A DNA stretch of 64,000 nt from Trypanosoma brucei (taxonomy: Eukaryota), in assembly GCA_000002445.1 (NCBI GenBank), contig CM000208.1, forward strand, positions 2,720,001 to 2,784,000, in the 5' to 3' direction. The position numbers and the translations under genes were made by a program. Position 1 is the first letter of the stretch, and each line of letters starts with the position of its first letter. Under the pieces are notes generated by a model, which saw only the letters and a program-made list of their open reading frames with translations, was not told the origin of the DNA and made no database searches. Positions 31,262-53,452 of the stretch are shown in pieces.

Positions 31262-34200
31262 ATGAATAGGTCGCCCGTAAATTTTTCAGAAAAAAATGCG
31301 CATGGTGATGAACCCGTCACAGCTCCACGGGTGAAGCAGTATGGTGGTGTGGAGCCTCGGGACATGTACAGCTTACCGAGTGTGTCTGTCCGCTCAACTC
31401 CGGCCCTTATGACTTCAGTTGACAGTTGCAACCGCTCTCCGCAGTGTCGACGGCCTTCCCTGACGCCACGCCACACATGTAACGCGGTGTTTGCTGGAAC
31501 GCAGGCACACGGTGAGCGAAAAGACAGACGCTTGATGGTGCTTGCCCCACCAAAGGAATCAGATGGGCCGCGTTGTATCCGGCTTGCGCCAAATGGAACG
31601 TTAGGATCTGTTCATTTTGAATCTACGAATGCTACCGGGAACCGGGACACTGCAGCAGGCGAGGAAGGTTTGGATGAAAGCGGAGCGTACTCCCAAAGTT
31701 CGGATGTGCCACCGCTCGAAGAGCAACTTTGTTTGGAGGACCTGCAGCGGCTCATGCTGGTCTTCTCTTCCACTCCCAGTTTACCCCCCGTCAATGACGA
31801 TGCTTCTTTTGAGAGGATGACTGATTTTCGTCGCTGCGGCGCTGCTCTTCCCAGTCAGGCCAATTCTAGTTGCACGAACACGGAAACAAACGTAAAAGAG
31901 GATCAATCACAGGGTGAGCAAGCGGCATCTGTAGAGGAGAACGTGGGAAAGGCAGGGTCACTTGTGCCCAAGCGCTCTTTTATCGTAGAAAGAAGAAACA
32001 AACCTCGCGGTGCCTTGACGGTTAACTCGCGCAGTGGGCTAAAGTTCGTGTTTGAGAATAAAGAAGAGCTGCAGCGAGTCCTTACACAGGCTTGGGACTG
32101 CAACCAAAACTTTGACAGAACATACTCCCGCGCTCTCAGTGAGGACGAGTTTTCTCAGGCGGTCAGGCGCTTAGTGCCCGCTGCGGGGGATGACGAGATT
32201 ATGGACCTGATGAAGAGGGTAGACTACGAGGCGAAGGGAACTATCAGTTGGGATGATTTTGCTACTTTTCTGGTTTCTCAAGGGAGACACCACTCCAACC
32301 TTTCCCAGGGGACATTTGGTGAGTTTAGCAACGTGCCTGATCCGGAATCTTGTTTCCCGTCTCAGCAGCACGTGAATGGTACGTGCATGGAGGCAGATGG
32401 GCAGCGTAATATCTTACTTACAGGTGGATCGGAGGGGACCGTGCGCGCATGGAACCTTAATACACTCGCTAGCTGTGGTGTTGTCTTCAGTGGGGACTGT
32501 TGGGTTGTCGGCGTTCATTGGGCAAATCATATTCAGGGCATTATAATTGTAACGATGGATCGGCGGGTGATGATTCTGGACTCCAAAACCCTGGAGGTCC
32601 GGCGCCTGTTTCGTGGTCGCCCGGTTGTAGACACATTCGAGGGTTATATGTATGCACACGACAGTGTGGAGACGGTCCGAGTTGGGGCATCGGTGGGGTC
32701 AAAGTCGGGGAAGTTAGGTAACCGCAACGGTGGCCTACCTGGGCGTCCATCGCAGAGGAAGAAAGATGTTGATGGCAGCGGGAAGCCAAAACCAGCGCCA
32801 GGGACAGGCAACATGTTTGGGGGTACCGCTAAAGGTTCTTGTGTGCAGTGCCACGTCGAGGAGTGCACCTTTGCTGGTTTAGTGGATGCTGTGACTTGTT
32901 CTCTTTACCACCGCACGGCGTCAAACGAGGATATGCTGCTTTTGGCCACGGCAGGAGGGGAGGTGCGATTCTACTCAATTCCACGGACAACAAAGCGGGT
33001 TGTCACACCTCATGTTGTCCTCTTGTTACACGAGAAGCGGATTAACAAGATGAGCATCTTTTACAACTCCAATGCATTACTAACTGCTTCCGATGATGGT
33101 TATGTCAAAATGACTTCATTTGACACGGGCGGGATGCTGCGGACGTTTCCCACCTCTGGCCCGTCACCACACGCGGCGGTACACGACTTCGACATCAATC
33201 CAAATCTGAGAATGCTTGTTACAGTGGGACCAGAACGCCACGGCATTGTCTGGGATCTCTCCCTCGACGTACCGATGGCCACACTTGATTCCCACAACGG
33301 CCCATGTCGATGCTGTGCGATGCAACTTGATCAGAGACAAATTGTGACGGTTGGGGCTGATGGGGTCATATTTATTTTTGAAGCACAAGGTTTTCGCCTA
33401 ATACAAATCATTGGAGTTGACCGCCTTCATCCCCAGCGTGTAGTCTCCGACCCACTGAGAAAGCGTATCATATGCCTTGCTGCGTTTCCCTATTCTCACG
33501 GTCGGAACCGAAACATGGCTTTGGCTTACTCCTCTAAATATAAGGGTCACATGGCTCCAATGGTGGGAGTTATGTATAGTGCCATCCATGATTTGATAAT
33601 TACCGTCGACTCAGAGGGTTTGGTCATGACTTGGAAGCGAGCTACTGGTGGCTCCTCATTCACCTTTCAGATCAAAGAGTTCTCGGACTCTGCTGTTATG
33701 AATGCGGCCAGGCTCACATGTTTTGCCCTCGACAAACTTGAGCGTCGGCTTCTAACGGGGTTTAATAATGGGGCCGCAGCAGTATGGAATTTAATGAACG
33801 GGCAGACAACAAACGTTATCACGGCTGCTGCGGAGGGCACCCAGCCTAGCACCGTTGCTCCTGGCGTGACTGCGCTTGGTACACTTATGCGTGAAGGTCT
33901 TACCTTTTTTATCTTTGCTGCGGGAGGGTGTCTTTATTCTACAAGGGAGTCCAGCACATTTACTATTGCAAGCGCGTCGAAATGGGAGGTTCCAGCGCAT
34001 TTCGGAGAAGTTCTTCATATAATGGCCGTATCGCCGCACTGCATTGTTTGCGGTACCTCTTACGGTGCGCTGTTTTTCTATCGCGTTTTGGCTGAGCGGC
34101 AGGAAGGCTCTGTTTTGTGGGTGATGGAAACTGTCGACATGTTGGCACGCTCGACTTGTAATGTTTCTGAAGCACGGCGTGGCGAACAACCTAGCACCGC

Positions 34201-36355
34201 CACCACTTCGCGCATCGTTAAGATATTTCCTCTGCGTACTGTCGGTGAACATATCCTAATGTCTGTTCACGCAGACGGCACTGTAGCTCTGTGGCACACA
34301 CTGCGGCGTACAATGATGGGGGTTGTAAGCTTGCGATCTGCTTTTCCCGTAAAGGGCCTTGAAGTGGGTCTGACGCACGCAGCAGCGGACACCGGTGGAC
34401 AGTACTTCGTGTTTTCAGATGAGCAGGGTAACATTCATGTGTGCAGTATTCTGCTGCGCGAGACACGCGACGATGCCTCCATGTTTGAGACGTGTGTCAC
34501 TTTGGTGCACGATGATGATAAGAAACCTACTGTCAGTTGGCCGGGATCCCCTTTTTGTACTGACGGAGTTCCACCTGTTTTCGGGCCAATGGACGGCGTA
34601 ACATGTGGGGGGGATGATGCTGCGAACTCCTCTGGGGAGGTAAAGCAGCAAACTGGGTCTTTGCGACCAAGATCACTGGACACAGAGAAGACCCTCTATA
34701 CGTTTAGCCGATTCCGCCGTGAATACGTGTTTCATTGTGGGTTTAATGCGGTGACTGGTCTTGCCCTGGTGGATGACCCCAAGGAGATCACTGTGCGGAC
34801 ATATGGGCAGGAACCAGAGGAGGCTGCAGGGCAGGACGTTGGAGAGGAGGATTGTTCTGATATCGGTGGGTTGCATCTTGGAGCCTCAACCAGCTCTCTT
34901 TGTGACGTTGACAGCACGCAGAATTTGCTTTTACCCTCTGTAGATCTCTCGTCCACAATGATGATCACAGTGTCTTCCGGAGTAGATAACCTCACCAGGG
35001 TGTTCATGTTAGATGGTTTAATAGTTGGTGAGTGTGGGATGAACACGTGGGTCGCGGGGAAGGAGTCAACGTACCAGTTTCTTAGTGTCAAACCGTCTAG
35101 GAGGCTACCTCCTCACTCCTGCAGTGCCGATCCTATAAATTTTCTGGCAGAAGCCTTGTCGTCGGATAAGGCTGGCGCCTCAAAGCAGATGCGCAGCAAC
35201 TGGAATTCAAGGGGAGGCGTTCCCCGGTCCGACTGCCAAACTGGACAAGACAATGCTGCATCGGTTATATGTGAGGCTGGGTTGCCTACCTTTCAGAATA
35301 TTGGTGTAGCATTGGTAGATAGTGCTGGTGGTGAGCGCACCCCGATGGTCCAATTAAGCAGTGATCCTGTCGAACGGGAGCCATCGGTAAAACCGCAGCA
35401 ACAAAGCTGTCAGATACAGGGAGAAGAACCAGGCTCTGATAAAGTGCAGGGGGCTGCATCACCAAGGGCGCTTTCCACTTTTATGAGGCCGCAACGATCC
35501 CGTGAAGCGATGCTCAAGGGTCTGGTGAAACCCAAATTTATTAATGCCTTACGCGGAATACCAGTGGAGGAAGGAGGGGAGGAGTTGGCGTCCTTCATTA
35601 TTAGCCCGGTGTCAAGAAGCGGTGGGAAGAAGCAGCACCGAGCTGACCAGGCGAGTGAGCACTCACACACCCTTTATTCAAGAAATGGAAGCGCCATTAA
35701 CCAAACGCCTGCTTCAGTGCGCCACGCAACAGAGTTAAGTGTCTCAGAAGTGCAGCAAAGCGGGGCGCAGGATGGTCGGCCAGTGCCTTCGCAACCCGCC
35801 CTTGCGGCTGGGCTCCCCACTCCGCACCAGGCAAGCCGCCAGCTGAGAACTCACTCGTGGGCAGTCCAGGGACGAAGGTGTCCTACAACTTCGCACGACG
35901 TAGACACGACACCTGCACTCACTAAGACACACGCGGGACCCCACCAATCGTCTGGTGGTGGAGTTAATAACGTCTCGTTGGAGGGGGACACATCACCCCG
36001 TGGGGCTCTGCACGAGCATATCGATTCGCGGCGTCGGCATTTGCTTTCGCTTGGGTGTAAGGACCCTGTGGTCCTTGCAGTGCCTTGTACTACAAACACC
36101 AACACCAAGGGGGAATCTACAGCGGTGAGTGGATCTGATCGTAAACGTAACACGGCTTCTGGTTCAACTGCTCTGTTACGTCGAATACAGGGTAACTCTA
36201 TTTTAGAGGCGAGGTCTCGTGTTGCGCAGATAACTTCCAGGCTATTGATGGCGCCCGTTGAAGAAATTGTGCCACCAAAGGGAACACGCGTTAAGGAGCA
36301 GACAACCGCATGGAAGAATGTGGTTAAGAACGCAACCAGCGCCTCACAACAATAA
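31262..36355 (+). CDS. giant WD40-repeat protein (~1697 aa) with an N-terminal EF-hand-like segment
   Basis: EF-hand-like region DEFSQAVRRLVPAAGDDEIMDLMKRVDYEAKGTISWDDFATFLV. Multiple WD-like blades follow: LLTGGSEGTVRAWNL, LLATAGGEVRFYSI, LLTASDDGYVKMTSFDTG, LVTVGPERHGIVWDLS, IVTVGADGVIFIFE, LIITVDSEGLVMTWK, ILMSVHADGTVALWH. The polypyrimidine tract at 31123-31176 precedes the ATG. Confidence 0.75.
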   Translation: MNRSPVNFSEKNAHGDEPVTAPRVKQYGGVEPRDMYSLPSVSVRSTPALMTSVDSCNRSPQCRRPSLTPRHTCNAVFAGTQAHGERKDRRLMVLAPPKESDGPRCIRLAPNGTLGSVHFESTNATGNRDTAAGEEGLDESGAYSQSSDVPPLEEQLCLEDLQRLMLVFSSTPSLPPVNDDASFERMTDFRRCGAALPSQANSSCTNTETNVKEDQSQGEQAASVEENVGKAGSLVPKRSFIVERRNKPRGALTVNSRSGLKFVFENKEELQRVLTQAWDCNQNFDRTYSRALSEDEFSQAVRRLVPAAGDDEIMDLMKRVDYEAKGTISWDDFATFLVSQGRHHSNLSQGTFGEFSNVPDPESCFPSQQHVNGTCMEADGQRNILLTGGSEGTVRAWNLNTLASCGVVFSGDCWVVGVHWANHIQGIIIVTMDRRVMILDSKTLEVRRLFRGRPVVDTFEGYMYAHDSVETVRVGASVGSKSGKLGNRNGGLPGRPSQRKKDVDGSGKPKPAPGTGNMFGGTAKGSCVQCHVEECTFAGLVDAVTCSLYHRTASNEDMLLLATAGGEVRFYSIPRTTKRVVTPHVVLLLHEKRINKMSIFYNSNALLTASDDGYVKMTSFDTGGMLRTFPTSGPSPHAAVHDFDINPNLRMLVTVGPERHGIVWDLSLDVPMATLDSHNGPCRCCAMQLDQRQIVTVGADGVIFIFEAQGFRLIQIIGVDRLHPQRVVSDPLRKRIICLAAFPYSHGRNRNMALAYSSKYKGHMAPMVGVMYSAIHDLIITVDSEGLVMTWKRATGGSSFTFQIKEFSDSAVMNAARLTCFALDKLERRLLTGFNNGAAAVWNLMNGQTTNVITAAAEGTQPSTVAPGVTALGTLMREGLTFFIFAAGGCLYSTRESSTFTIASASKWEVPAHFGEVLHIMAVSPHCIVCGTSYGALFFYRVLAERQEGSVLWVMETVDMLARSTCNVSEARRGEQPSTATTSRIVKIFPLRTVGEHILMSVHADGTVALWHTLRRTMMGVVSLRSAFPVKGLEVGLTHAAADTGGQYFVFSDEQGNIHVCSILLRETRDDASMFETCVTLVHDDDKKPTVSWPGSPFCTDGVPPVFGPMDGVTCGGDDAANSSGEVKQQTGSLRPRSLDTEKTLYTFSRFRREYVFHCGFNAVTGLALVDDPKEITVRTYGQEPEEAAGQDVGEEDCSDIGGLHLGASTSSLCDVDSTQNLLLPSVDLSSTMMITVSSGVDNLTRVFMLDGLIVGECGMNTWVAGKESTYQFLSVKPSRRLPPHSCSADPINFLAEALSSDKAGASKQMRSNWNSRGGVPRSDCQTGQDNAASVICEAGLPTFQNIGVALVDSAGGERTPMVQLSSDPVEREPSVKPQQQSCQIQGEEPGSDKVQGAASPRALSTFMRPQRSREAMLKGLVKPKFINALRGIPVEEGGEELASFIISPVSRSGGKKQHRADQASEHSHTLYSRNGSAINQTPASVRHATELSVSEVQQSGAQDGRPVPSQPALAAGLPTPHQASRQLRTHSWAVQGRRCPTTSHDVDTTPALTKTHAGPHQSSGGGVNNVSLEGDTSPRGALHEHIDSRRRHLLSLGCKDPVVLAVPCTTNTNTKGESTAVSGSDRKRNTASGSTALLRRIQGNSILEARSRVAQITSRLLMAPVEEIVPPKGTRVKEQTTAWKNVVKNATSASQQ

Positions 36356-37520: not shown

Positions 37521-38807
37521 ATGAAGCCAATTATAAAGTCGATCCTTGATACAGATGCGTACAAGTTACACATGCAGCAGGCTGTCTTTCATTTCTATCC
37601 CACAATTCACGTTGTTTACGAGTTTCAGTGCCGCAGTTCGGAGAACAAATTGGGTGATGCTGCAGATGCTATTCGAGAGCAGGTAGACCTCATGCGGCAC
37701 GTTGCCTTGACAGATGATGAATATGCTTACCTCTCAACCAAACGTTACCTCAAAAAGGATTACCTTGACTGGCTTCGTGAGTACAGGTTCAAGCCAGATC
37801 AAGTCATTATTGATGCTGTTCCGAAGACTCGGTGCAACGGGGAGACGAATATAACGTATCGGGAGCTCGCCATCACAATCAAAGGTCCATGGGTGGAAAC
37901 TATATTATGGGAAGTGCCGTTACTAGCGATTGTGTGTGAAGTAGTGCATAGCAAGCGGACGCAACATATTGGGGCTGCCGAGGCAGTTGAACACCTCAAT
38001 GCGAAGTTGGATAAACTTTTTGCTACATACGTGAATGGTGAACTAGACATGTTTCGGGTCACGGATTTTGGGACACGACGGCGCTACAGCTTCGATGTGC
38101 AGGAAGCCATTGTCAGGACGTTGCAGTCGCATCCATCATTTGGACGGAACTTTTCTGGCACGAGCAATTACCATTTGGCGATGAAGCTGGGTCTACCGGC
38201 GGTAGGGACGCAGGCACACGAGTGGTTTCAGGCCCATCAGCAGCTTTCCCCAGTTCTACGGGATTTCCAGCGCGTGGCTCTTAAGCAGTGGTTGCTAGAG
38301 TACCCTCAAGATCTTCACATCGCACTCACCGACTGTATTTCAATGGACGGTTTTCTGGGTGACTTTGATGCTGACCTCGCACAAGCGTACGTCGGCTTGC
38401 GGCACGATTCGGGTAATCCATATGTTTGGGGTCGCAAGGCCATTGAGCATTATAAGCGATTCAATATTGATCCGAAGTTGAAGACGCTTGTCTTTTCCGA
38501 TTCTCTTGACCTTGAGAGGGCCGCAAAACTGCATTGTACCTTTGCGCAGGAGTCAAATGTCATGTGTGGTATCGGAACCCAACTCACGTGCTCCATCCCC
38601 GGTGTGCAACCGCTGAGCATTGTGATTAAGATGACAGAATGCGATGGGAAGCCTGTTGCAAAGATATCTGATGAACCAGAGAAAACTACATTTAGGGATT
38701 TGGACTATGTTCAATTGTTAGGGCGAACATTCAATGTGGAATTGCAGGATATGATTGATGCGGGTTGTGGTAGGAGCGCTGTTCACCACCCAACACAGGT
38801 ACAATGA
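37521..38807 (+). CDS. pncB: nicotinate phosphoribosyltransferase, bacterial PncB type (NAD salvage)
   Basis: N-terminus MKPIIKSILDTDAYKLHMQQAVFHFYPTIHVVYEFQCR and the internal blocks GPWVETILWEVPLLAIVCE, FGTRRRYSFDVQEAIV, GTSNYHLAMKLGLPAVGTQAHEWFQAHQQ, GLRHDSGNP, LVFSDSLDL and GKPVAKISDEPEKTT follow E. coli-type PncB block for block (recalled from memory as LLDTDAYKLHMQQAVFHHY..., GPWREVILWEVPLLAV, FGTRRRFS, GTSNY.LA..L.L...GTQAHEWFQAHQQ, GLRHDSGDP, VFSD.LDL, GKPVAKLSDSPGKT). Length (428 aa) matches the bacterial enzyme. Confidence 0.93.
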   Translation: MKPIIKSILDTDAYKLHMQQAVFHFYPTIHVVYEFQCRSSENKLGDAADAIREQVDLMRHVALTDDEYAYLSTKRYLKKDYLDWLREYRFKPDQVIIDAVPKTRCNGETNITYRELAITIKGPWVETILWEVPLLAIVCEVVHSKRTQHIGAAEAVEHLNAKLDKLFATYVNGELDMFRVTDFGTRRRYSFDVQEAIVRTLQSHPSFGRNFSGTSNYHLAMKLGLPAVGTQAHEWFQAHQQLSPVLRDFQRVALKQWLLEYPQDLHIALTDCISMDGFLGDFDADLAQAYVGLRHDSGNPYVWGRKAIEHYKRFNIDPKLKTLVFSDSLDLERAAKLHCTFAQESNVMCGIGTQLTCSIPGVQPLSIVIKMTECDGKPVAKISDEPEKTTFRDLDYVQLLGRTFNVELQDMIDAGCGRSAVHHPTQVQ

Positions 38808-40429
38808 CAAAATTGGAAGGTTGAGCAAGTGCTCATGAATTCAAGAGAATAAGGAAGAGTCGCCGATGGTTTCTCCATATATTCCTTTTTTGTCTTTGGC
38901 TCTCTCGCCTAATTTGTTTGCTAATTTTAAAAATTTATCTTGTCTTGTTGGTATACGTTTTTTCATTTCATTTCATCTCTCAGTTTTTTTTTTTCGCTTA
39001 GGCACTTCACACGTATTTTTAAGGTATGGTTTTCACTTTGTTTTGCGTGTGCGTGTGTTTTGTGCTCGGATACTGGTGTTTACATGTAGCGCTGTGTGTT
39101 GAAACAGGGTATGTGTGTGGGGAAAACGCTGATTTTACATTGCTTCTCTCATTTGATGTTGTGCCGCTTGCTGCTGTTCGGCTTGAATCTGTTAATGCCT
39201 GTCCCTGCATCCCTGCGCTCCTCTTATCCGCATTGTACGCTCAATGGGAGCTTCACAGAGAGAAACATTAGGAGGAATGTTGTGGGATTGAAGGAAAGTG
39301 CTTCTTTTTCATTCTCTAACCATTATTTTCATCTTCAAGTGCCCTCGTGTGTCACTAGCATGAGGGACAAAGCACAATATGACGTGCCGAATGGCGGGGC
39401 GTATCGCTGAGAAGTTGTTGTCACGGCAATAATATGATGTGGATACGGTGCAGCACAGTAGTTGAGGGCATTGATAGAGTTGGGTGGATTATTTTCTTTT
39501 TCATTTTGCTTTCCCAGACACTGAAATGGGAGTCGGTGCGTGGCGCCAACACTACCCTCACTTGCGCCTCGTGAAGGTCTATCGTGTGACATATGGTGCT
39601 GCAAAGCTGTTCGGTCATTTATCCCTCTTCGCTCGGAAATTACCTTTCTTCCGCTGCTGTTCTGTGATCTTGGTAGCTCGTAAACACTTCAAAGTGCAAA
39701 ATTCCTAATCCTTATGGCCATGCAACTGCTCACTTTTTTTTTCTTCTTGATCGACGTCGGGCCGAAGCTTCTGCTATCCCTTCTAGAAGCGCGTGTATAC
39801 TTCTATATATTCTAACTATCGAGTAAAGGGTAATAATACTGCTGTCTGCACCACGACCTAATGAAAGCTTATGGAGAAAACCGAGACATGTAGAGGGGTC
39901 CTCAGTCGGTTGCCGCGCTTCCCCCTTCCGCTATTGTGGATACCCTCCTAAACAATCTTTCGTGTGCAACAATTCCCACACTTTTATTTTCTTTTTAAAT
40001 CAATGTTTATCAGCTCGGTGGCAACGTAGCGATAAGCTCGTGAGCGCAAATTGCCGTGCCTGCGCTCAGGCGTTAAGCATTTGTTATTTAATAGCGGTTC
40101 TAATAATATTTTTTGTTTCGTCTTTTTTGGTTTGCTGGGATGTGGCGCCGTGCATTCGTTTAGGACTCTACGCGCCCGCCCTTTGGGGAATCCGCGACAC
40201 GCAGTATATGTGAGGGAAATTTGATATTCGCTATCCCGTTGCATTCATTCTAGAATAGTGACGAGGGAAAGAGGTTAGGGGGAACAGTTGGGCGGTTTGC
40301 TTGGTTCTATCGAATAACTGCCACTTTTCTCCTCCCATCTTTTAGTTGACGTACTTTTCTTCGATTTCCTTCACCATTTTTCAGTGTTCCCTTCCTCTTC
40401 GCTCTCTCCTTTTATTATGAAATAGAGTG

Positions 40430-42229
40430 ATGGAGTATTCGTCAGATGCAGTGTTGAATGGATATGCTTTACTAGTTTGGTGTGCTCCATCTGTTAAAGA
40501 GGAGGGGGATACTTTTTTGCGTGCTTTCTTCTTGCGGCGCTTTCAAGGGACAGTGGCCGCTTCACCCGCCAGTATTGTTTTCGCAACGCCCAATGGTTCA
40601 CATAAAACCACCTTTTGGGGTGCCGATGGCGAAGGGGGTGCGGAGCCCCCCGACCGTGGAAGCGAGGCGTTGGTATTTTTCCGCGAGCGAGAGGGGGTTA
40701 AAATTGTTTTGTCAGGCATCGTTCAGCGCATACTGCATGAGAAGGAGCCACACAGCGGGGTAGAGCTGCTGCGTGGGTATGTGTTCTTGGGTACTGATCG
40801 TTTGTTAGTTGAAGGTGTTTTTCACCCGACGAGTTGCGCTGTGGGTGCGGGGGGAACAGAAGTCAGTGGGAGAGCCAATACGTCAGGTAGTGATGACAGC
40901 TTGTGGAGACGGCGAGTGTGCACCGACTCATGCTCACAATCATTAATGGGTTGGGGTCAACCGCGGGCTGAAGTTGTCGGAATGGGACGGGACGAGACTG
41001 TTGATTATAATCGCGTTACTGATTCTTACCTGGGAGGTGGAGGAGACTTTGCCGCCACTCCTTCCCAGGGTTGTGATAATAAGAATCATAGTGACCCCCA
41101 GTGCAATTCTTACCATGGGAAATCGAGAGAACACAATCGTGGGGGACGTATTGTTTTGCGCGTGACATTTGTGTGCTTGCTCGGCCGCTGCAAGGGTCTG
41201 CACGAGGGCGGGCACGGTGGTTGCCACTCAACTGGTGTCTCCACCCACGTTGTTTTTAAACTTCTGCGTGGTACTTGCTTCCCGCGGGGCATTATTATGT
41301 TTCCTCCGAGATTACTTGGTTGTACCGATGGGGTTATGGGCGGGGATGGGGCCTGGGGGGTTGATGCCGTCGTGGAAGTGGAGGATGCGGAGGCTGCAAA
41401 TTCCGTTGTTGATTCTTTCGACGGTTCCTTACTCGAGCTCGTAAAACCAGGCCCAAACTCAGACGAAGTGGAGTTTAGGTTTCGTTTGTTTGTGCGCGAG
41501 GACCGGCCTGGGGTGGAGCAGAAGCTTTCAATTCCATTCAACACTGAGTCAGAGTTAAGCATAACTCCAAGTAACTTGCTTCAGATGGGTGGGTCGTTTC
41601 GTTGTGAAAAGTATTCCGTCGAGCCAGCTGATACGGCAGCCAACGGGAGGTGGAACGCTGCTGTGGTACGTGCAAATGGCATAGCCGATAATCTTGTAGG
41701 GTTGGGGAGTATACAACATTTTTCAAGGGACCTAGCCCCTGGTCACCAGGGGATGAATTATGGGCACGACGCAGGCCTTAGCCGATCCCCTGAGCGGGGC
41801 TACGATAGCGTGCAGCGAAGCCGAAATCGCAGTCGAGGGCGGAGTCGGAGCCGGAGCCGAAGTCGAAGCCGCAGACGTGCTCGAAGGCGGGACCGGAGCC
41901 GCAGCCAACACCGAAGCCGAGTTCGCAGCCGCAGCCGCAGCCGCAGCGGGCGACGGGGGCGCCGGCGAGCTCACGGTCGAAGTCGAAGTCGAAATCGCAG
42001 TCGAGGGCGGAGCCGAATCCGAACTCGTGGCCGTAAGCGAAGTCGTAGCTCTAGCCGTGGCTCTTGGTACAGCTACAGCTCTGCCTCCAACTCTGATCGC
42101 AGCCGTAGTCGCAGTCCTAGTTTGAGTCGCAGTCGAACACGGAGTAGTGGAAAAGCTCGTAGGAGCGAGAATGTTGGTGACGATGAAATAAGTAAGAAAT
42201 GTGCTCTTACCCATCACCGTTATCAATAG
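40430..42229 (+). CDS. Arg/Ser-repeat (RS-domain) protein with a ~120-aa C-terminal RS/RSRS tract. No canonical RRM is evident.
   Basis: The C-terminus is RSRNRSRGRSRSRSRSRSRRRARRRDRSRSQHRSRVRSRSRSRSGRRGRRRAHGRSRSRNRSRGRSRIRTRGRKRSRSSSRG...SRSRSPSLSRSRTRS. The track start 40427 is a GTG, and the ATG is at 40430. The N-terminal ~470 aa are non-repetitive with only weak RNP1-like hints (LRGYVFLG). The coding DNA carries an internal near-exact direct repeat (cgaaatcgcagtcgagggcggag at about 41820 and about 41988). Confidence 0.7.
   Translation: MEYSSDAVLNGYALLVWCAPSVKEEGDTFLRAFFLRRFQGTVAASPASIVFATPNGSHKTTFWGADGEGGAEPPDRGSEALVFFREREGVKIVLSGIVQRILHEKEPHSGVELLRGYVFLGTDRLLVEGVFHPTSCAVGAGGTEVSGRANTSGSDDSLWRRRVCTDSCSQSLMGWGQPRAEVVGMGRDETVDYNRVTDSYLGGGGDFAATPSQGCDNKNHSDPQCNSYHGKSREHNRGGRIVLRVTFVCLLGRCKGLHEGGHGGCHSTGVSTHVVFKLLRGTCFPRGIIMFPPRLLGCTDGVMGGDGAWGVDAVVEVEDAEAANSVVDSFDGSLLELVKPGPNSDEVEFRFRLFVREDRPGVEQKLSIPFNTESELSITPSNLLQMGGSFRCEKYSVEPADTAANGRWNAAVVRANGIADNLVGLGSIQHFSRDLAPGHQGMNYGHDAGLSRSPERGYDSVQRSRNRSRGRSRSRSRSRSRRRARRRDRSRSQHRSRVRSRSRSRSGRRGRRRAHGRSRSRNRSRGRSRIRTRGRKRSRSSSRGSWYSYSSASNSDRSRSRSPSLSRSRTRSSGKARRSENVGDDEISKKCALTHHRYQ
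41815..42015 (+). repeat. internal direct duplication within the RS-domain coding region (the unit contains cgaaatcgcagtcgagggcggag)
   Basis: The same ~23-nt string occurs at about 41820 and about 41988. The surrounding sequence is imperfect (CGN-AGC)n-like Arg/Ser codon repeats. This generates the artefactual antisense ORFs 41732..42250 and 41760..42125. Confidence 0.7.
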
Positions 42230-43122
42230 CCGAGGACTCGCCAATGCCAAGGAACTTTGTACGAATCATTCAACTGAAGCTATTTTACTTCACGCATCTC
42301 GTGTGCCGTTGGATTTGTGATAAACCCTTTTTTCCTTTTTAACCACTCTCGGGGGAATATGGAAGTTATCGCCGTGTCTATTAGAGTTCCCAAAAGAACC
42401 ACGGTCGCCTCGCTGTGGATTCCCCTGCTAATGTAGTTGATGTAACCCTTTTTGATGATAGTTGCGATGAGGGTTGTAGGCCGCATGAATGGGGATGATC
42501 CATGTTTTTGTAATAGCCTCCGCGTGAGTGTTTCAGACTTCTTTTTCGTGCTCCTATGTGTACTGGAACGCATTGCTGTGTTGCTTTTGTGGTTGGCAAG
42601 AAGACAAAAATTAACTGATCTTTATGCAGAGGGGGGGGGTACCACACATCGTAAGTAACAGCTTCCAGAGTGTGTGGGAAGGTAGACAATAAAACGTGAT
42701 GCGGGGAATTTCTTGTTAACTTCGTTGTGATTGGAAGAGGGGGTAAACCACGAGGTAAACGACACCTTTTTTGTTCAGTAGTTTCTTTAAAGCATAGCGT
42801 TGACTATATGGAATGCAACCTATGTACGAGAGTGCTCTTGGTTCGGCACTTTACCGCGCGTCAAATTACAATTGAATCGCATCCACACCAGGTATGCATT
42901 AATTCATCTACAATGAAGTTCACATATAGTTTTATATGCTTCCCCGGTGTGCATTTTTTGTGAGTGGACTTGGTGTCTAAGTATTATTGCATCAATACAG
43001 TCAAAAGACACTAGTCAGCCTATTGCATCTACTCTTTTTTTTTTTTAACTTTTTACCCCATTCCCTTCAGGTAAAGTGTGCGGTGAGTTAAGTGTCCCTA
43101 CCGAACCGTTGACTTAGGGAGA

Positions 43123-43812
43123 ATGGTGAATCATTTAGTTGTATTGATCGGCTCAGACGGCAAACGAGCGACGGTGAGTCGCACAGCAGCGACTCATGCA
43201 TCGCTGCTCCTCCGCGATCTGCTGGATGGGAGGGAACCCAACACAACTGTGGTGGAGGGGAAAAGCGGAGTGGAACATGTAAGCAATTCCGACATTTTTG
43301 AGGGTCTCGTGGCGGACAAGGAGGTCGCAGTACCAGCCATTGAGATACCTTTTACTCACGCTACTGGATCCCTCTTGCAACGGATTTGTGCTCACATGAC
43401 GTATAGATATGATTATCGCCCACCAAACGGGGGTGTTGAAGGTTCGACAGTACTTTTTGAGCCTGTTGCAAGGGAACATAGGGCTACTTTTTCATGTGGC
43501 GGGGGTTACGGCAGGAATGTGATGCCTGAGATTCCCCGGCCCATGGTGCTTCCGCTAGTGGACTACTTGGATTCTTTTGACAAGCGGTTTATTGAAGATT
43601 GGGATGAAATTACAACGGTACAGATGGTAAAGTTGGCGACATTGCTGAATTACGAAGAGTTGCTGAACTTAGCGTCCGCCAAACTGGCTGTGTATTTGTC
43701 TGAGAAGTCCATTGAGGGGTTACGAGCCTTTCTTGGCGTGGAGAATGACTTCAAGGCTGAAGAAGAGGCTGAACTCAGGAAAGAGTACGGAAGAATGTCA
43801 GAGGAGAAGTAG
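43123..43812 (+). CDS. Skp1-family protein (divergent SCF ubiquitin-ligase adaptor-like)
   Basis: Skp1 C-terminal dimerisation signature WDEITTVQMVKLATLLNYEELLNLASAKLAVYLSEKSIEGLRAFLGVENDFKAEEEAELRKEY (compare W.D.EFL.VD...LFELILAANYL.IK.LLD..CK.VA.MI.GK.PEEIRKTFNI.NDFT.EEE..IR.EN). N-terminal POZ-like start VVLIGSDGKRATVSRTAATHASLLLRDLLDG. Confidence 0.75.
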   Translation: MVNHLVVLIGSDGKRATVSRTAATHASLLLRDLLDGREPNTTVVEGKSGVEHVSNSDIFEGLVADKEVAVPAIEIPFTHATGSLLQRICAHMTYRYDYRPPNGGVEGSTVLFEPVAREHRATFSCGGGYGRNVMPEIPRPMVLPLVDYLDSFDKRFIEDWDEITTVQMVKLATLLNYEELLNLASAKLAVYLSEKSIEGLRAFLGVENDFKAEEEAELRKEYGRMSEEK

Positions 43813-44201
43813 ACATGAGGGTGTGAGGCACACTTGTTTTTGCCGATGTGCGCGTATTCGAGAACCAGGTGTGGCGCGTGTTGACGGTGGAGGTGGTGGT
43901 GACGGCGGTATGGAAGGATTGCTGAAGTATGACCCAGTGTCCCCTTCGAAATTCTTCGTTTAATTTACAGAAGGGTGACATGATAGTGCTATGTTTCCCG
44001 CATTTGCTCAAGCGTTTACATTTAAAAAAAAATTGGTGTAAGCACGTCTATTCGCGTTGATATCGATGTGTTCTTTGCGTGTGCACGCGTCAATCGACAC
44101 AATCCAGGTGCTTAACGTGACCAACGCTCCCGATATCCCCCCGCAACCCTTTTTGCTTTGTCCGTTTAACCTTGTTTAGATATCTTTTTCTCCTGTTCGG
44201 T

Positions 44202-47200
44202 ATGCGTGGGGAGAGCAGTGCTGTGAGTTTTCAGTATGAGTCTCCCGATGTTACCGGCGCCTCCCCATCATTCACCAATTCTTCCCTAGCGAGGATAATT
44301 GGGCAAAAAGAGCTTCCACGATTCGGTATAGAAATTGGTGGCCATGAAGGGCTACTGAAGCTGCTCGGTGTCCGTTACGACGGGGAACCGACGTGGCGGA
44401 GTGGCGGTGGCTTGCGTGGGGGCATCTTGTCGGATTCTGTACATCAGCGACGGTGTCGTTTTGGTGGCAACCGCCTGCCCCGCCCTCGAGATAAAAGCGT
44501 GGGAACCCTCGTGAAAGAGTCCATCGAGGAGGACAAAATCCTACAGCTGCTAATCGGTGCGGCTCTGTTTTCAATTTTACTCGGTCACTTGACCTCCTAT
44601 CATCAGAAGGAAGGGGGGAATATGTGCCCCAGCTGGGTTGAAGGGGCAGCTATACTCTTTTCTGTGGTGGTTGTTGTCACGCTTGGCGCGCTCAACAACT
44701 ACAACAAGCAGAAGCAATTTTCACATGTCTTATTGCAAGAGGATGGAACAAGGCAGTCGATCGTTGTATGGCGTTATGACACATTGGACGACAGAGCGAT
44801 GGTTAGGGAACTTTGCCTGGCTGCCAGAGAGGTGCCTAGTGAGGATCTCGTTGTTGGGGATGTTGTGCAGATATCTTCAGGAATGGAGCTTAGCTTTGAC
44901 GCCATTCTCTTTGGTGGTAACTATGTCGTTTGTGACGAGTGTTGTGTGTCAGGCGAGAGTGAAGAGGTTGTGAAAAGTTTGGAAGCTGATCCCTTTTTGA
45001 TCAGTGGTTCTAGCGTTTTAGAGGCCTCGTCGGAGGCGATTGCTGTCGTTTGCGCTGTGGGAGAGAAAAGTTTCTCGGGGGAAATTGCCATGGCCGTTCG
45101 AGATACGGAAAAGAAGGTGACACCGCTTCAGGAACATTTAAGTGTTATGGCAGATCACATAGGAAAGTTTGGACTGGCCGTTGCTGTCCTTACATTCGTG
45201 GTTCTTTTTCTCAAGGAGGTGTACGAGGTTGTAGCCATGGGAAAGCCGTTTTTCGTCATGAGTTTTGTTGAGAATCTGGCCACATCCATTGCCATAATTG
45301 TTGTCGCCGTACCGGAAGGATTGCCACTCTCAGTGACTATATCGCTTGCATACTCTATGCGATACATGCTGCGGGATGGCAATTTGGTTCGACATTTGGC
45401 GGCCTGTGAGACAATGGGCAGTGCAACGGTTTTGTGTACGGACAAAACTGGTACCCTTACATCTCCCCACGCAACACTAAGCAGAGTGCTCTTTGAAGGG
45501 AAGGTTTACACGGCAAATGATAGCGGAGGGGATGGAAGTAGTTGTGTCGAGGGCGGTCGATGGAATAAAAGTGGGACCGGGTTATTTGTGGTGGCGTCTT
45601 CTCAGGCAACCGCCGGTTTGCTAATGGAGTGCGTGGTTTCCAATGCGTTGGATCCTGTTCGAGGCCGGCCGGTGAACCGAACGGCGGAGGCCCTGCTTCA
45701 ACTTGCTCAGCATTTGTATGTTTCATGCGGCGATGACTTTTCCTCGCCATTCGTTTACGACATGGGCCGCCTGGCGCAGCAAATGTGCGACGGATCGCGT
45801 TGTGTCCGCTTCCCTTTTACATCAGTACAGAAAAAAAGCGTTACAATTCTGAAGCTTCCTACTGGTGAACTCCGTCAGTATGTTGTTGGGGCACCAGAGG
45901 CGATATTAAGTAGCTGTCGGAATTTTATCACAGCCGCCGGCGCTTTGGTGGAGATAAACACCGAGTCACGTGAATTTCTTCAGAGCATCATTCAAGAATT
46001 TGGCCGCAGAGGCCTCAGGAGTTTGTGTTGTGCGTACGCCGTTGTTTATCCGATTGAGGGGCGCATCATGCCACTGGAAGTTTCCAGCGCTCCGCTCAAC
46101 TTTTTGGCTGCGGTTGCATTAGAGGAAGAGGTTCGACCTGAAGTCCCCGCAGCAGTACGAGCAAGCATCTGTGCAGGTATTCGTGTGATCATGGTAACAG
46201 GTGATGGGCTGCTTACCTCCATTAACATTGCTTATCGATGCGGGTTGCTGAACCCGGTGGGCGGGGAAACAAGTAATTGCTTTTCTCCACCACCGATCAG
46301 TACGTTGATCAACGATGGCTATGCTATGGACGGCCCCGCGTTTCGTGCTTGTTCTGACACCGATCTCCTCGTCAACTACATTCCGAAGTTGTGCGTATTG
46401 GCTCGTGCAACTCCGCTTGATAAGAAACGGGTCTTACAGCTGCTAAAAATGCACGATCCACTCGCTGTGATCGCCGTTACTGGCGATGGCACGAATGATG
46501 CCCCTGCGCTAAAGCTGAGCGACGTTGGTTTTGCCATGAATAGCGGTAGTGAGGTGGCGAAGAGGGCGTCCGACATCATACTTCTTCACGATAATTTTGC
46601 CGGGATGGTGAAGGCAACCATGTGGGGACGCAATGTCAGGGACAATGTACGCAAGTTTTTACAGTTTCAGCTGACCGTAAACTGCGTTGCGTGTGTCTTC
46701 GCTTTTTGCGGCGCCCTGATTAATGAGAGCAATATTTTGCCCCTGAAACCTGTGCAACTTCTGTGGCTCAACCTCATCATGGACACGTTGGCTTCCTTGG
46801 CTCTCGCAACAGAGTTGCCTTTGGAGAAGCGTCTGTTTGATCGGGCACCTGAACCACGAGACACGCCCATCATACTTCCGGGTATGTTGTTTCAGGTGGC
46901 GGTGCAGGGTGGTTATCAATTCGTTGTGCAAATCTACATGTTGTTGGCCGGACACCGGTTGTTCGGCGATAGCAGTACCGGTGAAGTGGAACGGCGGAGT
47001 CGACCGCCTATTGACTATTTGTGTCCGAAACATCTTTCTATCGTCTTTAATGTGTTCGTGCTGATGCAGGTGATGAACTTCTTTAACGCCCGTCTTCTCC
47101 ATGAGGAGGATAGTTTCTTTGAGAACTGGGGTAGTAGCCGTTTGCTGCTGCTGATTGTAGCTGTGATCGCGGTTCTGCAAGTGTGCATCGTGCAGTACGG

Positions 47201-47504
47201 GGGGCGCTTCATGTCTACAGTCCCGCTGAGCACCGAAGAGTGGCTCTACTGCACGTTGTACGCTAGTGGAAGCCTGGCTGTGGGTGCTGCATCGCGGTTC
47301 TGCTGGCGGTGGATGCGGCGCCGTGGAGCGCACAGTACAGGGAGTTGTGATTCATATGTATTGCTGTCGTATCTTCCACGTTGGCTGCGAGCGCTCATCG
47401 ATGGGGCACGTGGGGGTTCCGGGAGGAGACGGCAAAGAAGTAGCTATTGTAAGGCTGCGGTGAAGGGGAAGGGAGCGTGTAAAACTGCCCCTGCATACGT
47501 TTAA
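44202..47504 (+). CDS. P-type ATPase, type II (Ca2+-transporting, PMCA/vacuolar Ca-ATPase-like)
   Basis: Phosphorylation-site motif LCTDKTGTLT, hinge motif VTGDGTNDAPALKLSDVGFAM, PEGLPLSVTISLAYSMRYM (M4 ion-binding region) and 8-10 predicted TM segments. The track start 44172 is a TTG. The first ATG is at 44202 (MRGESSAVSF...). Confidence 0.9.
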   Translation: MRGESSAVSFQYESPDVTGASPSFTNSSLARIIGQKELPRFGIEIGGHEGLLKLLGVRYDGEPTWRSGGGLRGGILSDSVHQRRCRFGGNRLPRPRDKSVGTLVKESIEEDKILQLLIGAALFSILLGHLTSYHQKEGGNMCPSWVEGAAILFSVVVVVTLGALNNYNKQKQFSHVLLQEDGTRQSIVVWRYDTLDDRAMVRELCLAAREVPSEDLVVGDVVQISSGMELSFDAILFGGNYVVCDECCVSGESEEVVKSLEADPFLISGSSVLEASSEAIAVVCAVGEKSFSGEIAMAVRDTEKKVTPLQEHLSVMADHIGKFGLAVAVLTFVVLFLKEVYEVVAMGKPFFVMSFVENLATSIAIIVVAVPEGLPLSVTISLAYSMRYMLRDGNLVRHLAACETMGSATVLCTDKTGTLTSPHATLSRVLFEGKVYTANDSGGDGSSCVEGGRWNKSGTGLFVVASSQATAGLLMECVVSNALDPVRGRPVNRTAEALLQLAQHLYVSCGDDFSSPFVYDMGRLAQQMCDGSRCVRFPFTSVQKKSVTILKLPTGELRQYVVGAPEAILSSCRNFITAAGALVEINTESREFLQSIIQEFGRRGLRSLCCAYAVVYPIEGRIMPLEVSSAPLNFLAAVALEEEVRPEVPAAVRASICAGIRVIMVTGDGLLTSINIAYRCGLLNPVGGETSNCFSPPPISTLINDGYAMDGPAFRACSDTDLLVNYIPKLCVLARATPLDKKRVLQLLKMHDPLAVIAVTGDGTNDAPALKLSDVGFAMNSGSEVAKRASDIILLHDNFAGMVKATMWGRNVRDNVRKFLQFQLTVNCVACVFAFCGALINESNILPLKPVQLLWLNLIMDTLASLALATELPLEKRLFDRAPEPRDTPIILPGMLFQVAVQGGYQFVVQIYMLLAGHRLFGDSSTGEVERRSRPPIDYLCPKHLSIVFNVFVLMQVMNFFNARLLHEEDSFFENWGSSRLLLLIVAVIAVLQVCIVQYGGRFMSTVPLSTEEWLYCTLYASGSLAVGAASRFCWRWMRRRGAHSTGSCDSYVLLSYLPRWLRALIDGARGGSGRRRQRSSYCKAAVKGKGACKTAPAYV

Positions 47505-52534: not shown

Positions 52535-52584
52535 GCAAAAGCAAAAGCAAAAGCAAAAAAAAAACAACAACAACAACAACAACA
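52535..52584. repeat. (GCAAAA)4 followed by (CAA)7
   Basis: gcaaaagcaaaagcaaaagcaaaaaaaaaacaacaacaacaacaacaaca. Confidence 0.9.
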
Positions 52585-53423
52585 CATATATGTTTCTTTA
52601 ATTCGTTTACATCTTCTTTTTTACGTGCGCATTCCATCACCTTTCATTCATTCAACTTTTTTTTCCATTTATTTACTTATTTTTATTTTATTTATTTTAT
52701 TTGGTCACCCTCTCAGTCACTTGCTTTTTATTTCTATCATCATTATTTACATGTATGTGCATGTGAAGATGTGCTGTTCACAAATGTGCGTGTGTGTTTA
52801 AATAAATATATAAATATATAAATGTATGTATTTGTATGTGTTGTGATGAATTTGAAATGTTGCGCCTTCGCAATTTAGTGTGGGGTCACTGCTGAGGAGT
52901 TGGGGAATTCTGTATGCAATTTGTGTTTTTGTTTGTTTAATTTATATTTTTACGCCTCTAATTTTATTTAAGTAATGATATAAGGGATATGTTTAAAAAT
53001 ATCTTTAGAAAACGCCAAACGAATGAATAAATGAATGAATGAGATAATTAAAATGTACGTACAATAGTGTATTTAATGAGCGAAGGCACGTTACTGTGTG
53101 GCATTAAGATGGCACGTAAAATCAAAACAAACAAACAAACAAATAATAATAATGATATGTATATATGTATTTGTATATTTAAAAGGGGTAAATGCGATTC
53201 GTGTGAGGGGTGGTGGTGGGAAATGTTTGGTAACGACAAACAAAAAGAGGGATACCAAGAATAGGTAAGCAAATAAATAAATAAATTAAAATAATAAAGG
53301 TAACTCTCTGGGGCCCGTGTCGGCAACCCAGGAAATAAAAAGTTAGTTTTATTCTTGTTATTTTATTTTCTCTTTTTATGCACTGTCACCGCTTAGCAGA
53401 GGCAAGCCCTTGTGCCGTTGCCC

Positions 53424-53424
<1 letters not shown>

Positions 53425-53452
<28 letters not shown>
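53425..53452. repeat. (ATT)9 microsatellite
   Basis: attattattattattattattattatta. Confidence 0.95.

What the first reader, a model, noticed from the sequence alone, without database searches (positions are those of the whole stretch)
40430..42229. Long RS/RSRS-repeat protein with an internal DNA duplication and no canonical RRM
Trypanosomes rely on trans-splicing yet have very few described SR proteins. This ORF ends in a ~120-residue near-pure Arg/Ser dipeptide array with interspersed RRR/RGR. The N-terminal ~470 residues show only weak RNP1-like similarity (LRGYVFLG). The RS-coding DNA contains a near-perfect ~23-nt direct repeat about 170 nt apart (about 41820 and 41988). This suggests recent expansion or contraction of the array and a risk of assembly collapse. 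The Ala-rich antisense ORFs on the - strand are artefacts of the same repeat.
Basis: seen in the sequence. Interest (0 to 1): 0.6.

Follow-up and report, generated by a model that had tools for sequence, protein, structure and literature searches.

The report
ESAP1: known trypanosome RS-repeat nuclear protein
This ORF is the Trypanosoma brucei gene Tb927.10.11600, described in 2025-26 as ESAP1, an RRM-like protein with a C-terminal Arg/Ser tail that helps recruit an RNA-degrading enzyme to the parasite's surface-antigen expression site; so it is a real but already described gene, and one detail may be new: the brucei lineage lost an ancestral WW domain and greatly expanded the Arg/Ser tract.

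Summary
ORF 40430-42229 (+) encodes a 599-aa, 66.0-kDa protein. Residues 462-575 are 73% Arg+Ser. An exact 23-nt direct repeat lies 168 nt apart (41822-41844 and 41990-42012). Pfam finds no domain.

The gene is not undescribed. The window is T. brucei TREU927 chromosome 10, and the protein is identical to XP_823367.1. Flanking genes (SkpZ = Tb927.10.11610, PMCA = Tb927.10.11620) and the 66.0-kDa mass identify it as Tb927.10.11600. That gene is ESAP1 (Lansink et al., Nat Microbiol 2026), published as "RRM-like domain + C-terminal RS repeats". ESAP1 is needed to recruit ESB3 and the PIN nuclease ESB2 to the expression-site body and to keep ESAG mRNAs low. It also co-purified with the splicing kinase CRK9 in 2016.

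The RS array is not an assembly artefact. Four independent assemblies agree except for one CGCAGC (Arg-Ser) unit.

- The family spans Trypanosomatidae, with a syntenic Leishmania orthologue. The paper says it is restricted to trypanosomes.
- All 20 homologues outside the brucei group end in a WW domain, which T. brucei has lost while expanding the RS tract.

Novelty: already known. Interest is low to moderate.

The parts
40430..42229 (+). CDS of Tb927.10.11600 = ESAP1 (599 aa, 66.0 kDa), stop codon included
   Evidence: The ORF is. The protein is identical to XP_823367.1/Q389I1 of T. b. brucei TREU927. The computed mass is 66,002 Da, and Tb927.10.11600 is listed at 66.0 kDa in PMC4783070. Neighbouring genes match Tb927.10.11610 (SkpZ) and Tb927.10.11620 (PMCA).
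40457..40828 (+). Folded domain 1 (residues ~10-133): beta-alpha-beta-beta-alpha-beta core plus a conserved C-terminal beta-hairpin. The topology is RRM-like, but the fold was not confirmed by structure search.
   Evidence: AlphaFold2 gives pLDDT mostly 83-96 outside the 57-72 loop. Strands are 13-18, 48-51, 78-83, 99-105, 112-120 and 123-131. Helices are 27-37 and 87-95. The domain profile has no sequence hit in the PDB.
40769..40792 (+).
   Evidence: It is among the most conserved stretches of the family: G116 and G121 are at least 90% conserved across 21 sequences. In the model it forms strand 112-120 of the hairpin that follows beta4, so it is not in the beta3/RNP1 position.
40829..41140 (+). 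Disordered, poorly conserved linker (residues 134-237)
   Evidence: pLDDT is below 50 for residues 136-237. The region is highly variable in length and sequence among orthologues.
41141..41629 (+). Folded domain 2 (residues 238-400): extended RRM fold of the PTB/hnRNP-L type, without RNP1 aromatic residues
41813..42154 (+). RS domain (residues 462-575)
   Evidence: It is 73% R+S, has 47 overlapping RS/SR dipeptides and a pI of 12.0. RS-dipeptide content is 58% over residues 462-545. The best 100-aa window has 43 RS/SR dipeptides, against 2-17 in 20 orthologues.
41822..41844 (+). 23-nt exact direct repeat, copy 1 (encodes RNRSRGRS, residues 465-472)
41990..42012 (+). 23-nt exact direct repeat, copy 2 (encodes RNRSRGRS, residues 521-528)
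   Evidence: The copy is identical in T. b. gambiense DAL972.
41924..41947 (+). (CGCAGC)4 microsatellite-like tract. This is the only site of length polymorphism: 4 units in TREU927 and 3 in DAL972 and both T. equiperdum assemblies.
   Evidence: The DNA alignment is, the protein comparison, and the tract coordinates.
41732..42250 (-). Ala/Ser/Thr/Pro-rich antisense ORF (172 aa), a reading-frame by-product of the CGN/AGY repeat and not a gene. The same applies to the plus-strand alternative-frame ORF at 41760-42125.
   Evidence: The ORFs coincide exactly with the RS-coding repeat. The sense frame is the one conserved and annotated in four genomes.

Best explanation
The ORF is Tb927.10.11600 (ESAP1, ESB-associated protein 1) of Trypanosoma brucei.

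Architecture, shown here:
- a folded N-terminal domain with RRM-like topology;
- a disordered linker;
- a divergent extended RRM fold;
- a C-terminal RS domain of about 115 residues.

Function, shown in the literature:
- In bloodstream forms the protein forms a single nuclear focus at the VSG expression-site body. This depends on VEX2.
- It is required for recruitment of ESB3 and of the PIN endonuclease ESB2.
- In insect forms it spreads into nucleoplasmic speckles and is dispensable.

Mechanism, inferred:
- The RS domain probably provides multivalent, phosphorylation-tunable interactions. These would partition the protein into the ESB condensate or speckles and bridge to ESB3/ESB2.
- The RRM-fold domain contacts nascent expression-site RNA or a protein partner.

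Evolution, shown here: the RS array is an expansion specific to the brucei group, in a protein that elsewhere in Trypanosomatidae ends in a WW domain. The 23-nt repeat and the CGCAGC-unit polymorphism are ordinary traces of slippage or short duplication in a low-complexity coding repeat. They are not an assembly error.
For: Identity:
- The protein is identical to XP_823367.1 of TREU927 chromosome 10.
- The computed mass of 66.0 kDa equals the mass listed for Tb927.10.11600.
- The downstream Skp1-domain gene is SkpZ, Tb927.10.11610. The next gene, a P-type Ca-ATPase, is Tb927.10.11620.

Published function and architecture of Tb927.10.11600/ESAP1: PMC13056571.

Co-purification with CRK9, in the same list as TSR1 and CLK/DYRK kinases: PMC4783070.

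Structure:
- Two confident domains.

RS domain metrics.

Repeat:
- Exact and non-random.
- The array agrees in four assemblies apart from a single 6-nt unit difference.

Evolution:
- The profile search finds 21 family representatives.
- All 20 homologues outside the brucei group end in LPPGW...YYV...TG...W..P. This segment matches Pfam WW at E = 4e-5 to 7e-3.
- L. major Q4Q494 ('WW domain-containing protein') lies between NAPRTase and Skp1 genes, as ESAP1 does.
- No WW remnant is found downstream or anywhere else in the window.
- RS/SR density is 43 per 100 aa in T. brucei against 2-17 elsewhere.
Against: - The gene ID was assigned through neighbours, mass and architecture, not from an annotated record carrying the locus tag.
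- RNA binding by either domain is unproven. Domain 2 lacks the RNP1 aromatic residues, so it could be a protein-binding pseudo-RRM. The authors overlay it on UPF3, whose RRM-like domain binds UPF2.
- The RS domain's role in condensate targeting and its phosphorylation are inferences. No deletion or phosphosite data were seen here.
- Pfam WW matches in the orthologues are below the gathering threshold (17-24 bits against 26.9).
- The RRM-like assignment of domain 1 rests on predicted topology only.
Confidence: 0.85

Rival explanations
1. It is a general SR-type splicing factor for trans-splicing. On this view the ESB phenotype is secondary to a splicing role.
For: - It has a C-terminal RS domain that meets the usual content criterion, together with an RRM fold.
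- It co-purified with the splicing kinase CRK9, alongside TSR1 and CLK/DYRK-type kinases.
- It shows a nucleoplasmic speckle pattern in procyclic forms.
Against: - RNAi in procyclic forms gave no fitness cost and no transcriptome change.
- In bloodstream forms the dominant effect was specific up-regulation of active-site ESAG mRNAs, matching the ESB2 and ESB3 knock-downs.
- The protein forms one ESB focus rather than a general nuclear pattern (PMC13056571).
- It is not among the SR proteins listed for trypanosomes.
- The CRK9 co-purification was at low abundance (rank 59, emPAI 0.7).
Confidence: 0.1
2. It is a pure protein-protein adaptor. The RRM-fold domains are pseudo-RRMs (UHM/UPF3-like) that bind ESB3 or VEX2 rather than RNA, and the RS tail serves mainly as a nuclear or speckle targeting signal.
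For: - Domain 2 lacks RNP1 aromatic residues; its beta3 strand reads DAVVEVED.
- ESB3 localisation depends on ESAP1.
Against: - The best structural matches are RNA-binding PTB and hnRNP-L-type RRMs, which also lack canonical RNP aromatics yet bind RNA.
- No direct ESAP1-ESB3 or ESAP1-VEX2 interaction is reported in the passages read. The authors note that the module was absent from VEX affinity purifications.
Confidence: 0.25
3. The RS tract length, the internal repeat or both are assembly artefacts of a collapsed or expanded low-complexity region.
For: The region is a low-complexity CGN/AGY repeat containing a 23-nt exact repeat and hexamer tracts. One unit of length difference exists between strains.
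Against: - Four independently assembled genomes (TREU927, DAL972, T. equiperdum OVI, T. b. equiperdum) give the same array, differing only by one CGCAGC unit.
- Sequence between the two repeat copies is unique and in frame.
- The longest exact repeat, at 23 nt, is far shorter than Sanger or Illumina reads.
- The protein was detected by mass spectrometry (21.7% coverage); the 66.0 kDa listed with it is the predicted mass.
Confidence: 0.03

Closest known systems
ESAP1 (Tb927.10.11600), ESB-associated protein 1; Lansink et al., Nat Microbiol 2026 (PMC13056571; preprint 10.1101/2025.05.24.654301)
   Same: It is the same gene, judged by an identical TREU927 protein, matching neighbours and matching mass. 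The published architecture, 'RRM-like domain + C-terminal RS repeats', is what is seen here.
   Different: There is no difference in identity.
- a second folded N-terminal domain;
- the PTB/hnRNP-L-type character of the RRM fold;
- orthologues outside Trypanosoma (Leishmania, Novymonas, Lotmaria, Angomonas), where the paper states 'restricted to trypanosomes';
- a C-terminal WW domain in all homologues outside the brucei group. The term 'WW domain' does not occur in the paper's main text.
Classical SR proteins (SRSF1-12 as defined by Manley & Krainer 2010; in trypanosomes TSR1, TRRM1, RBSR1-3)
   Same: The order is N-terminal RRM-fold domain(s) followed by a C-terminal RS domain of more than 50 aa with more than 40% RS content. 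It is nuclear with a speckle pattern in procyclics, and it co-purifies with a splicing kinase.
   Different: - No sequence-detectable RRM_1.
- A 60-residue spacer separates the RRM fold from the RS domain, and a 100-residue disordered insert separates the two folded domains.
- The demonstrated role is locus-specific recruitment of RNA decay machinery, not splicing.
- It is a different locus from TSR1 (Tb927.8.900), TRRM1 (Tb927.2.4710) and RBSR1-3.
PTB / hnRNP L / hnRNP-L-like extended RRMs (PDB 2e5i, 2adc, 2adb)
   Different: Identity is only 15-18%. No sequence-level relationship is detectable. There are large loop insertions at residues 253-271 and 297-307. The resemblance is at the level of fold, not family membership.
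Leishmania major Q4Q494 'WW domain-containing protein' and its trypanosomatid relatives (Novymonas, Lotmaria, Angomonas, T. cruzi, T. grayi, T. melophagium, T. congolense)
   Same: They are positional orthologues, lying between the NAPRTase and Skp1-like genes. They share both folded domains (profile E = 1e-11 for the L. major cluster) and have an R/S-rich linker in the same position.
   Different: All end in a WW domain that T. brucei lacks. Their R/S tracts are shorter and Ser-run-like rather than RS-dipeptide arrays, with 2-17 RS/SR per 100 aa against 43.
UPF3B RRM-like domain (PDB 7NWU, 1UW4)
   Same: It is an RRM-like fold and the authors' chosen structural comparator. It appears among the hits here.

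Membership tests
ESAP1 / Tb927.10.11600 (gene identity) | The protein sequence is that of the TREU927 chromosome 10 gene located between Tb927.10.11590 and Tb927.10.11610. | tested here: met
   The protein is identical to XP_823367.1/Q389I1 on a 4,054,025-bp contig. The downstream 229-aa Skp1-domain ORF is SkpZ, Tb927.10.11610. The next gene is a PMCA-type ATPase, Tb927.10.11620.
ESAP1 / Tb927.10.11600 (gene identity) | Predicted mass and architecture as published (66.0 kDa; RRM-like domain + C-terminal RS repeats). | tested here: met
   The computed mass is 66,002 Da, against 66.0 kDa in PMC4783070. The RRM fold and C-terminal RS domain match the description in PMC13056571.
Classical SR protein (Manley & Krainer definition, as quoted in PMC8311971) | One or two N-terminal canonical RRM domains. 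| tested here: not met
   Pfam RRM_1 and all other families gave no hit at E <= 10. Domain profiles gave no RRM hit in PDB sequences. Only the fold is RRM-like, and the RNP1 aromatics are absent.
Classical SR protein (Manley & Krainer definition, as quoted in PMC8311971) | [quoted passage not shown] | tested here: met
   58% of residues 462-545 and 64% of the best 50-aa window lie in RS/SR dipeptides.
Classical SR protein (Manley & Krainer definition, as quoted in PMC8311971) | A role in constitutive or alternative splicing. | not testable with these tools
   The literature reports an ESAG-specific mRNA phenotype and no procyclic transcriptome change. The only link to the splicing machinery is co-purification with CRK9.
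RRM fold (structural superfamily) | A beta1-alpha1-beta2-beta3-alpha2-beta4 sandwich that superposes on solved RRMs. | tested here: met
RRM fold (structural superfamily) | RNP1 ([RK]-G-[FY]-[GA]-[FY]-[ILV]-x-[FY]) and RNP2 consensus motifs on beta3 and beta1. | tested here: not met
   In domain 2, beta3 is GVDAVVEVED and beta1 is IVLRVTFVCLLG. In domain 1, beta3 is EALVFF. The RNP1-looking LRGYVFLG lies outside beta3.
Described trypanosome SR-related proteins (TSR1, TSR1IP, TRRM1, RBSR1-3, U2AF65) | Orthology, meaning the same locus or detectable sequence homology. | tested here: not met
   Those genes are at other loci (Tb927.8.900, Tb927.2.4710, Tb927.9.6870, Tb927.3.5460). Searches with the N-terminal 407-457 residues returned only this family (3 hits; 21). 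All homologues outside the brucei group share the two-domain + WW architecture. No direct pairwise comparison with the TSR1, TSR1IP or TRRM1 sequences was run.
Trypanosomatid two-domain + WW protein family (e.g. L. major Q4Q494) | Conserved N-terminal domains 1 and 2 and a conserved genomic position. | tested here: met
   Profile hits range from E = 1e-123 (T. grayi) to 1e-11 (L. major cluster). The gene order NAPRTase - gene - Skp1-like is the same in L. major and T. brucei.
Trypanosomatid two-domain + WW protein family (e.g. L. major Q4Q494) | C-terminal WW domain (LPPGW...YYV...TG...W..P). | tested here: not met
   It is present in all 20 homologues outside the brucei group, with Pfam WW at E = 4e-5 to 7e-3. 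It is absent from the T. brucei, T. b. gambiense and T. equiperdum proteins. It is also absent from all frames downstream and from the whole window.

The most novel reading that the evidence does not exclude
ESAP1 is the brucei-group derivative of a protein found across Trypanosomatidae, built from two RRM-like domains, an R/S-rich linker and a C-terminal WW domain. After the split from T. congolense, the brucei-group lineage deleted the WW domain and expanded the linker into a near-pure RS-dipeptide array. This domain swap could be what re-targeted a general nuclear protein to the VSG expression-site body and its ESB3/ESB2 RNA-decay module. The swap is seen only in the brucei-group genomes examined here, the same species the paper names as the only ones with ESB3 and ESAGs. 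The published statement that ESAP1 is 'restricted to trypanosomes', and the absence of 'WW domain' from the paper's main text, suggest this evolutionary route has not been described.
Probability: 0.3. Interest if true: 0.5.

Novelty: already known. Interest (0 to 1): 0.25.

Why it matters
ESAP1 belongs to the machinery that lets African trypanosomes express one VSG at very high level while holding the co-transcribed ESAG mRNAs down. That function is already published, so the finding does not open a new question.

What this analysis adds is modest but testable. The RS array is a lineage-specific replacement for an ancestral WW domain in a conserved trypanosomatid protein. This gives a natural experiment: brucei ESAP1 against congolense, cruzi or Leishmania orthologues, or RS/WW swaps. 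Such comparisons could show how a nuclear protein was recruited to a new nuclear body. They could also test whether RS-domain phosphorylation (CRK9, CLK or SRPK) controls the switch between ESB focus and speckles at different life stages.

Tried and rejected
- Pfam on the full protein at E <= 10 gave nothing. Pfam on the full-length T. congolense and T. cruzi orthologues at E <= 0.01 also gave nothing. The WW domain appears only when the C-terminal 40-45 residues are scanned alone, and it stays below the gathering score.
- Profile searches of domain 1 and domain 2 against all PDB sequences gave no meaningful hit.
- hhalign of domain 1 against domain 2 gave no significant similarity (probability 0.7%). 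It aligned only the beta3-alpha2 segments, so an internal duplication of the two domains is not supported at sequence level.
- A 168-nt segmental duplication was rejected. Identity at offset 168 is 51%, no better than at other offsets, and similarity is confined to about 35 nt around the 23-mer.
- The search for a WW remnant found none, either by three-frame translation downstream or by tblastn of three WW segments against the window (best E = 0.41, noise).
- The exact-product contig lookup found no record for the TREU927 protein. The DAL972 protein worked.
- Literature searches for 'Q389I1' and for NAPRTase + Tb927.10 found nothing. The gene ID came from guessing neighbouring IDs.
- Rfam and tRNA scans of the whole window gave nothing.
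Full report
**Observation.**
It runs from ATG 40430 to the stop at 42227-42229 and encodes 599 aa (66,002 Da, pI 10.5). Residues 462-575 (nt 41813-42154) are 73% Arg+Ser, with 25 RS and 22 SR dipeptides. In residues 462-545, 58% of residues lie in RS/SR dipeptides.

The 23-mer CGAAATCGCAGTCGAGGGCGGAG occurs exactly at 41822-41844 and 41990-42012, 168 nt apart. Both copies encode RNRSRGRS. Composition does not explain this. No codon-order shuffle out of 2000 produced a repeat of 23 nt or longer. Only 0.25% of synonymous-codon resamplings of the same peptide did.

Similarity is confined to about 35 nt. At offset 168 the region is only 51% identical, no better than at other offsets. It is therefore a short local duplication or conversion tract, not a large segmental duplication.

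Pfam finds nothing in the protein, even at E <= 10. The Ala-rich ORFs on the minus strand and in the alternative plus-strand frame coincide with the CGN/AGY repeat and are by-products of it.

**Is the array an assembly problem?**
No. The protein is identical to XP_823367.1 of T. b. brucei TREU927. T. b. gambiense DAL972, T. equiperdum OVI and a second T. b. equiperdum assembly carry the same RS array. The only difference is one Arg-Ser dipeptide. At the DNA level this is one CGCAGC unit of the (CGCAGC)4 tract at 41924-41947. Both 23-mers are identical in DAL972. Slippage does occur, but at the hexamer tract and by a single unit.

**What the gene is.**
The window is TREU927 chromosome 10. The flanking genes are as follows:
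- a nicotinate phosphoribosyltransferase (37521-38807);
- a 229-aa Skp1-domain protein (43123-43812);
- a P-type Ca-ATPase (44172-47504).

The Skp1-like gene is SkpZ, Tb927.10.11610 (PMC11732084). The PMCA-type ATPase is Tb927.10.11620 (PMC6027440). The gene between Tb927.10.11590 and Tb927.10.11610 is Tb927.10.11600. It is listed as a 66.0-kDa conserved hypothetical protein that co-purified with the splicing kinase CRK9 (PMC4783070). That matches the computed mass.

Tb927.10.11600 was named ESAP1 (ESB-associated protein 1) by Lansink et al. (Nat Microbiol 2026, PMC13056571; preprint May 2025). [quoted passage not shown] It reports the following:
- In bloodstream forms the protein forms a single focus at the expression-site body. 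This depends on VEX2.
- ESB3 and the PIN endonuclease ESB2 need ESAP1 for their localisation.
- ESAP1 RNAi causes a fitness cost and specifically up-regulates ESAG mRNAs from the active expression site.
- In procyclic forms the protein is down-regulated, appears as nucleoplasmic speckles and is dispensable.

The feature is therefore real but already described, including its SR-like architecture.

**Structure.**
An AlphaFold2 model of residues 1-457, built from a 21-sequence family alignment, shows two confidently folded domains. Much of each is at pLDDT >= 90. A disordered linker (residues 136-237) separates them, and a disordered segment precedes the RS domain.

Domain 1 (residues ~10-133) has a beta-alpha-beta-beta-alpha-beta core plus a conserved beta-hairpin. 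It is one of the most conserved motifs of the family.

- TIA-1, Raver1, PRP24, RBM39 and others, so that all top 60 hits are RRMs.

The same ranking appeared for the whole model, so those hits came from domain 2. Foldseek was only weakly informative. Its list did include UPF3B 7NWU, the authors' comparator.

At sequence level neither domain hits any solved structure. The two domains are not detectably related to each other. Domain 2 also lacks RNP1 aromatics; its beta3 is GVDAVVEVED. 'No canonical RRM' is thus true of the sequence but not of the fold. Whether the domain binds RNA, as PTB and hnRNP L do without the aromatics, or binds protein, as UPF3 and UHM domains do, remains open.

**Relatives.**
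A word-indexed search found only T. brucei-group, T. congolense and T. cruzi proteins. An exhaustive profile search found 21 cluster representatives. Named members are T. grayi, T. melophagium, T. congolense, T. cruzi, Leishmania major, Novymonas esmeraldas, Lotmaria passim and Angomonas deanei. The rest are unnamed contigs from sequencing-run and metagenome assemblies (Logan, ENA, JGI/IMG).

The L. major member (Q4Q494, 'WW domain-containing protein') lies between a NAPRTase gene and a Skp1-like gene, exactly as ESAP1 does. It is a positional orthologue. The published statement that ESAP1 is 'restricted to trypanosomes' therefore holds only for easily detectable similarity.

All 20 homologues outside the brucei group end in a WW-type module, LPPGW...YYV...TG...W..P. 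It matches Pfam WW at E = 4e-5 to 7e-3, below the gathering score. The T. brucei-group proteins end instead in ...SENVGDDEISKKCALTHHRYQ. No WW remnant exists in any frame downstream or anywhere else in the window.

Conversely, the best 100-aa window holds 43 RS/SR dipeptides in T. brucei against 2-17 in the others. The Leishmaniinae-type sequences do have R/S-rich (about 0.6) Ser-run tracts at the same position. An R/S-rich linker is therefore ancestral. The near-pure RS-dipeptide array and the loss of the WW domain are derived in the brucei group, after its split from T. congolense. The term 'WW domain' does not occur in the ESAP1 paper's main text.

**Mechanism.**
*Shown in the literature:* ESB localisation, VEX2 dependence, the requirement for ESB3/ESB2 recruitment, and ESAG repression.

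*Shown here:* the domain architecture, the RRM fold, the RS-domain metrics, the repeat structure, and the evolutionary domain swap.

*Inferred:*
- The RS domain supplies multivalent, phosphorylation-tunable contacts that drive partitioning into the ESB condensate or into speckles.
- Co-purification with CRK9, in a list that also holds TSR1 and CLK/DYRK-type kinases, hints at RS-domain phosphorylation.
- The RRM fold engages nascent expression-site RNA or a protein partner.

*Rivals considered:*
- General trans-splicing SR factor. This is disfavoured by the specific RNAi phenotype and by dispensability in procyclic forms.
- Pure protein adaptor with pseudo-RRMs. This remains open.
- Assembly artefact. 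This is rejected.

**Comparison and verdict.**
The protein works like an SR-related protein, but it fails the classical SR definition on the canonical-RRM criterion. It is not an orthologue of TSR1, TSR1IP, TRRM1 or RBSR1-3. It is ESAP1.

Novelty is 'already known', and interest is low to moderate. The residual value lies in three observations that the paper does not appear to cover:
- the WW-to-RS domain swap;
- the wider phyletic distribution, supported by synteny;
- the second folded domain.

Noticed in passing
window 50780-55541: A 4.7-kb stretch has no ORF of 125 aa or more and unusually low G+C (0.30-0.34, against about 0.50 elsewhere). It lies between a PSP1-C-terminal-domain gene (48875-50779) and a prenyltransferase alpha-repeat gene (55542-57017). 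(AT)n tracts lie at 55436-55515 and 58359-58406. It is probably a very long UTR or intergenic region.
   Followed up: partly
window 40417-40425: A minimal upstream ORF (ATG AAA TAG) sits 5 nt before the ESAP1 start codon. It lies downstream of a long polypyrimidine tract at about 40320-40410 that probably holds the trans-splice acceptor. Whether it falls within the mature 5' UTR is unknown.
   Followed up: no
P0006 (RHW68971.1, T. b. equiperdum) compared with window 40430-42229: This assembly annotates the orthologue as 464 aa, starting at an internal Met (brucei position 134), so domain 1 is missing. The downstream sequence, including the RS tail, is nearly identical. This looks like an annotation or start-codon difference rather than a real truncation.
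   Followed up: partly
L002 (L. major chr 33, FR796429.1:440813-458606) and window 37521-47504: The gene order NAPRTase - ESAP1 orthologue - Skp1-like is conserved between T. brucei chromosome 10 and L. major chromosome 33. In L. major the next called gene within the fetched stretch is a rhodanese-domain protein, not the PMCA that follows SkpZ in T. brucei. The intergenic spacers are also much longer there, about 4 kb.
   Followed up: no
window 31262-36355: A 1697-aa ORF combines an EF-hand pair (residues ~284-336) with WD40 beta-propeller repeats. All the specific propeller families score below their curated cut-offs, so its identity is unresolved.
   Followed up: no
window 1-64000: Every ORF of 200 aa or more with a plausible product is on the plus strand, and cumulative GC skew rises monotonically. 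This fits a single polycistronic transcription unit. There are no tRNA genes and no Rfam family hits in the window.
   Followed up: yes
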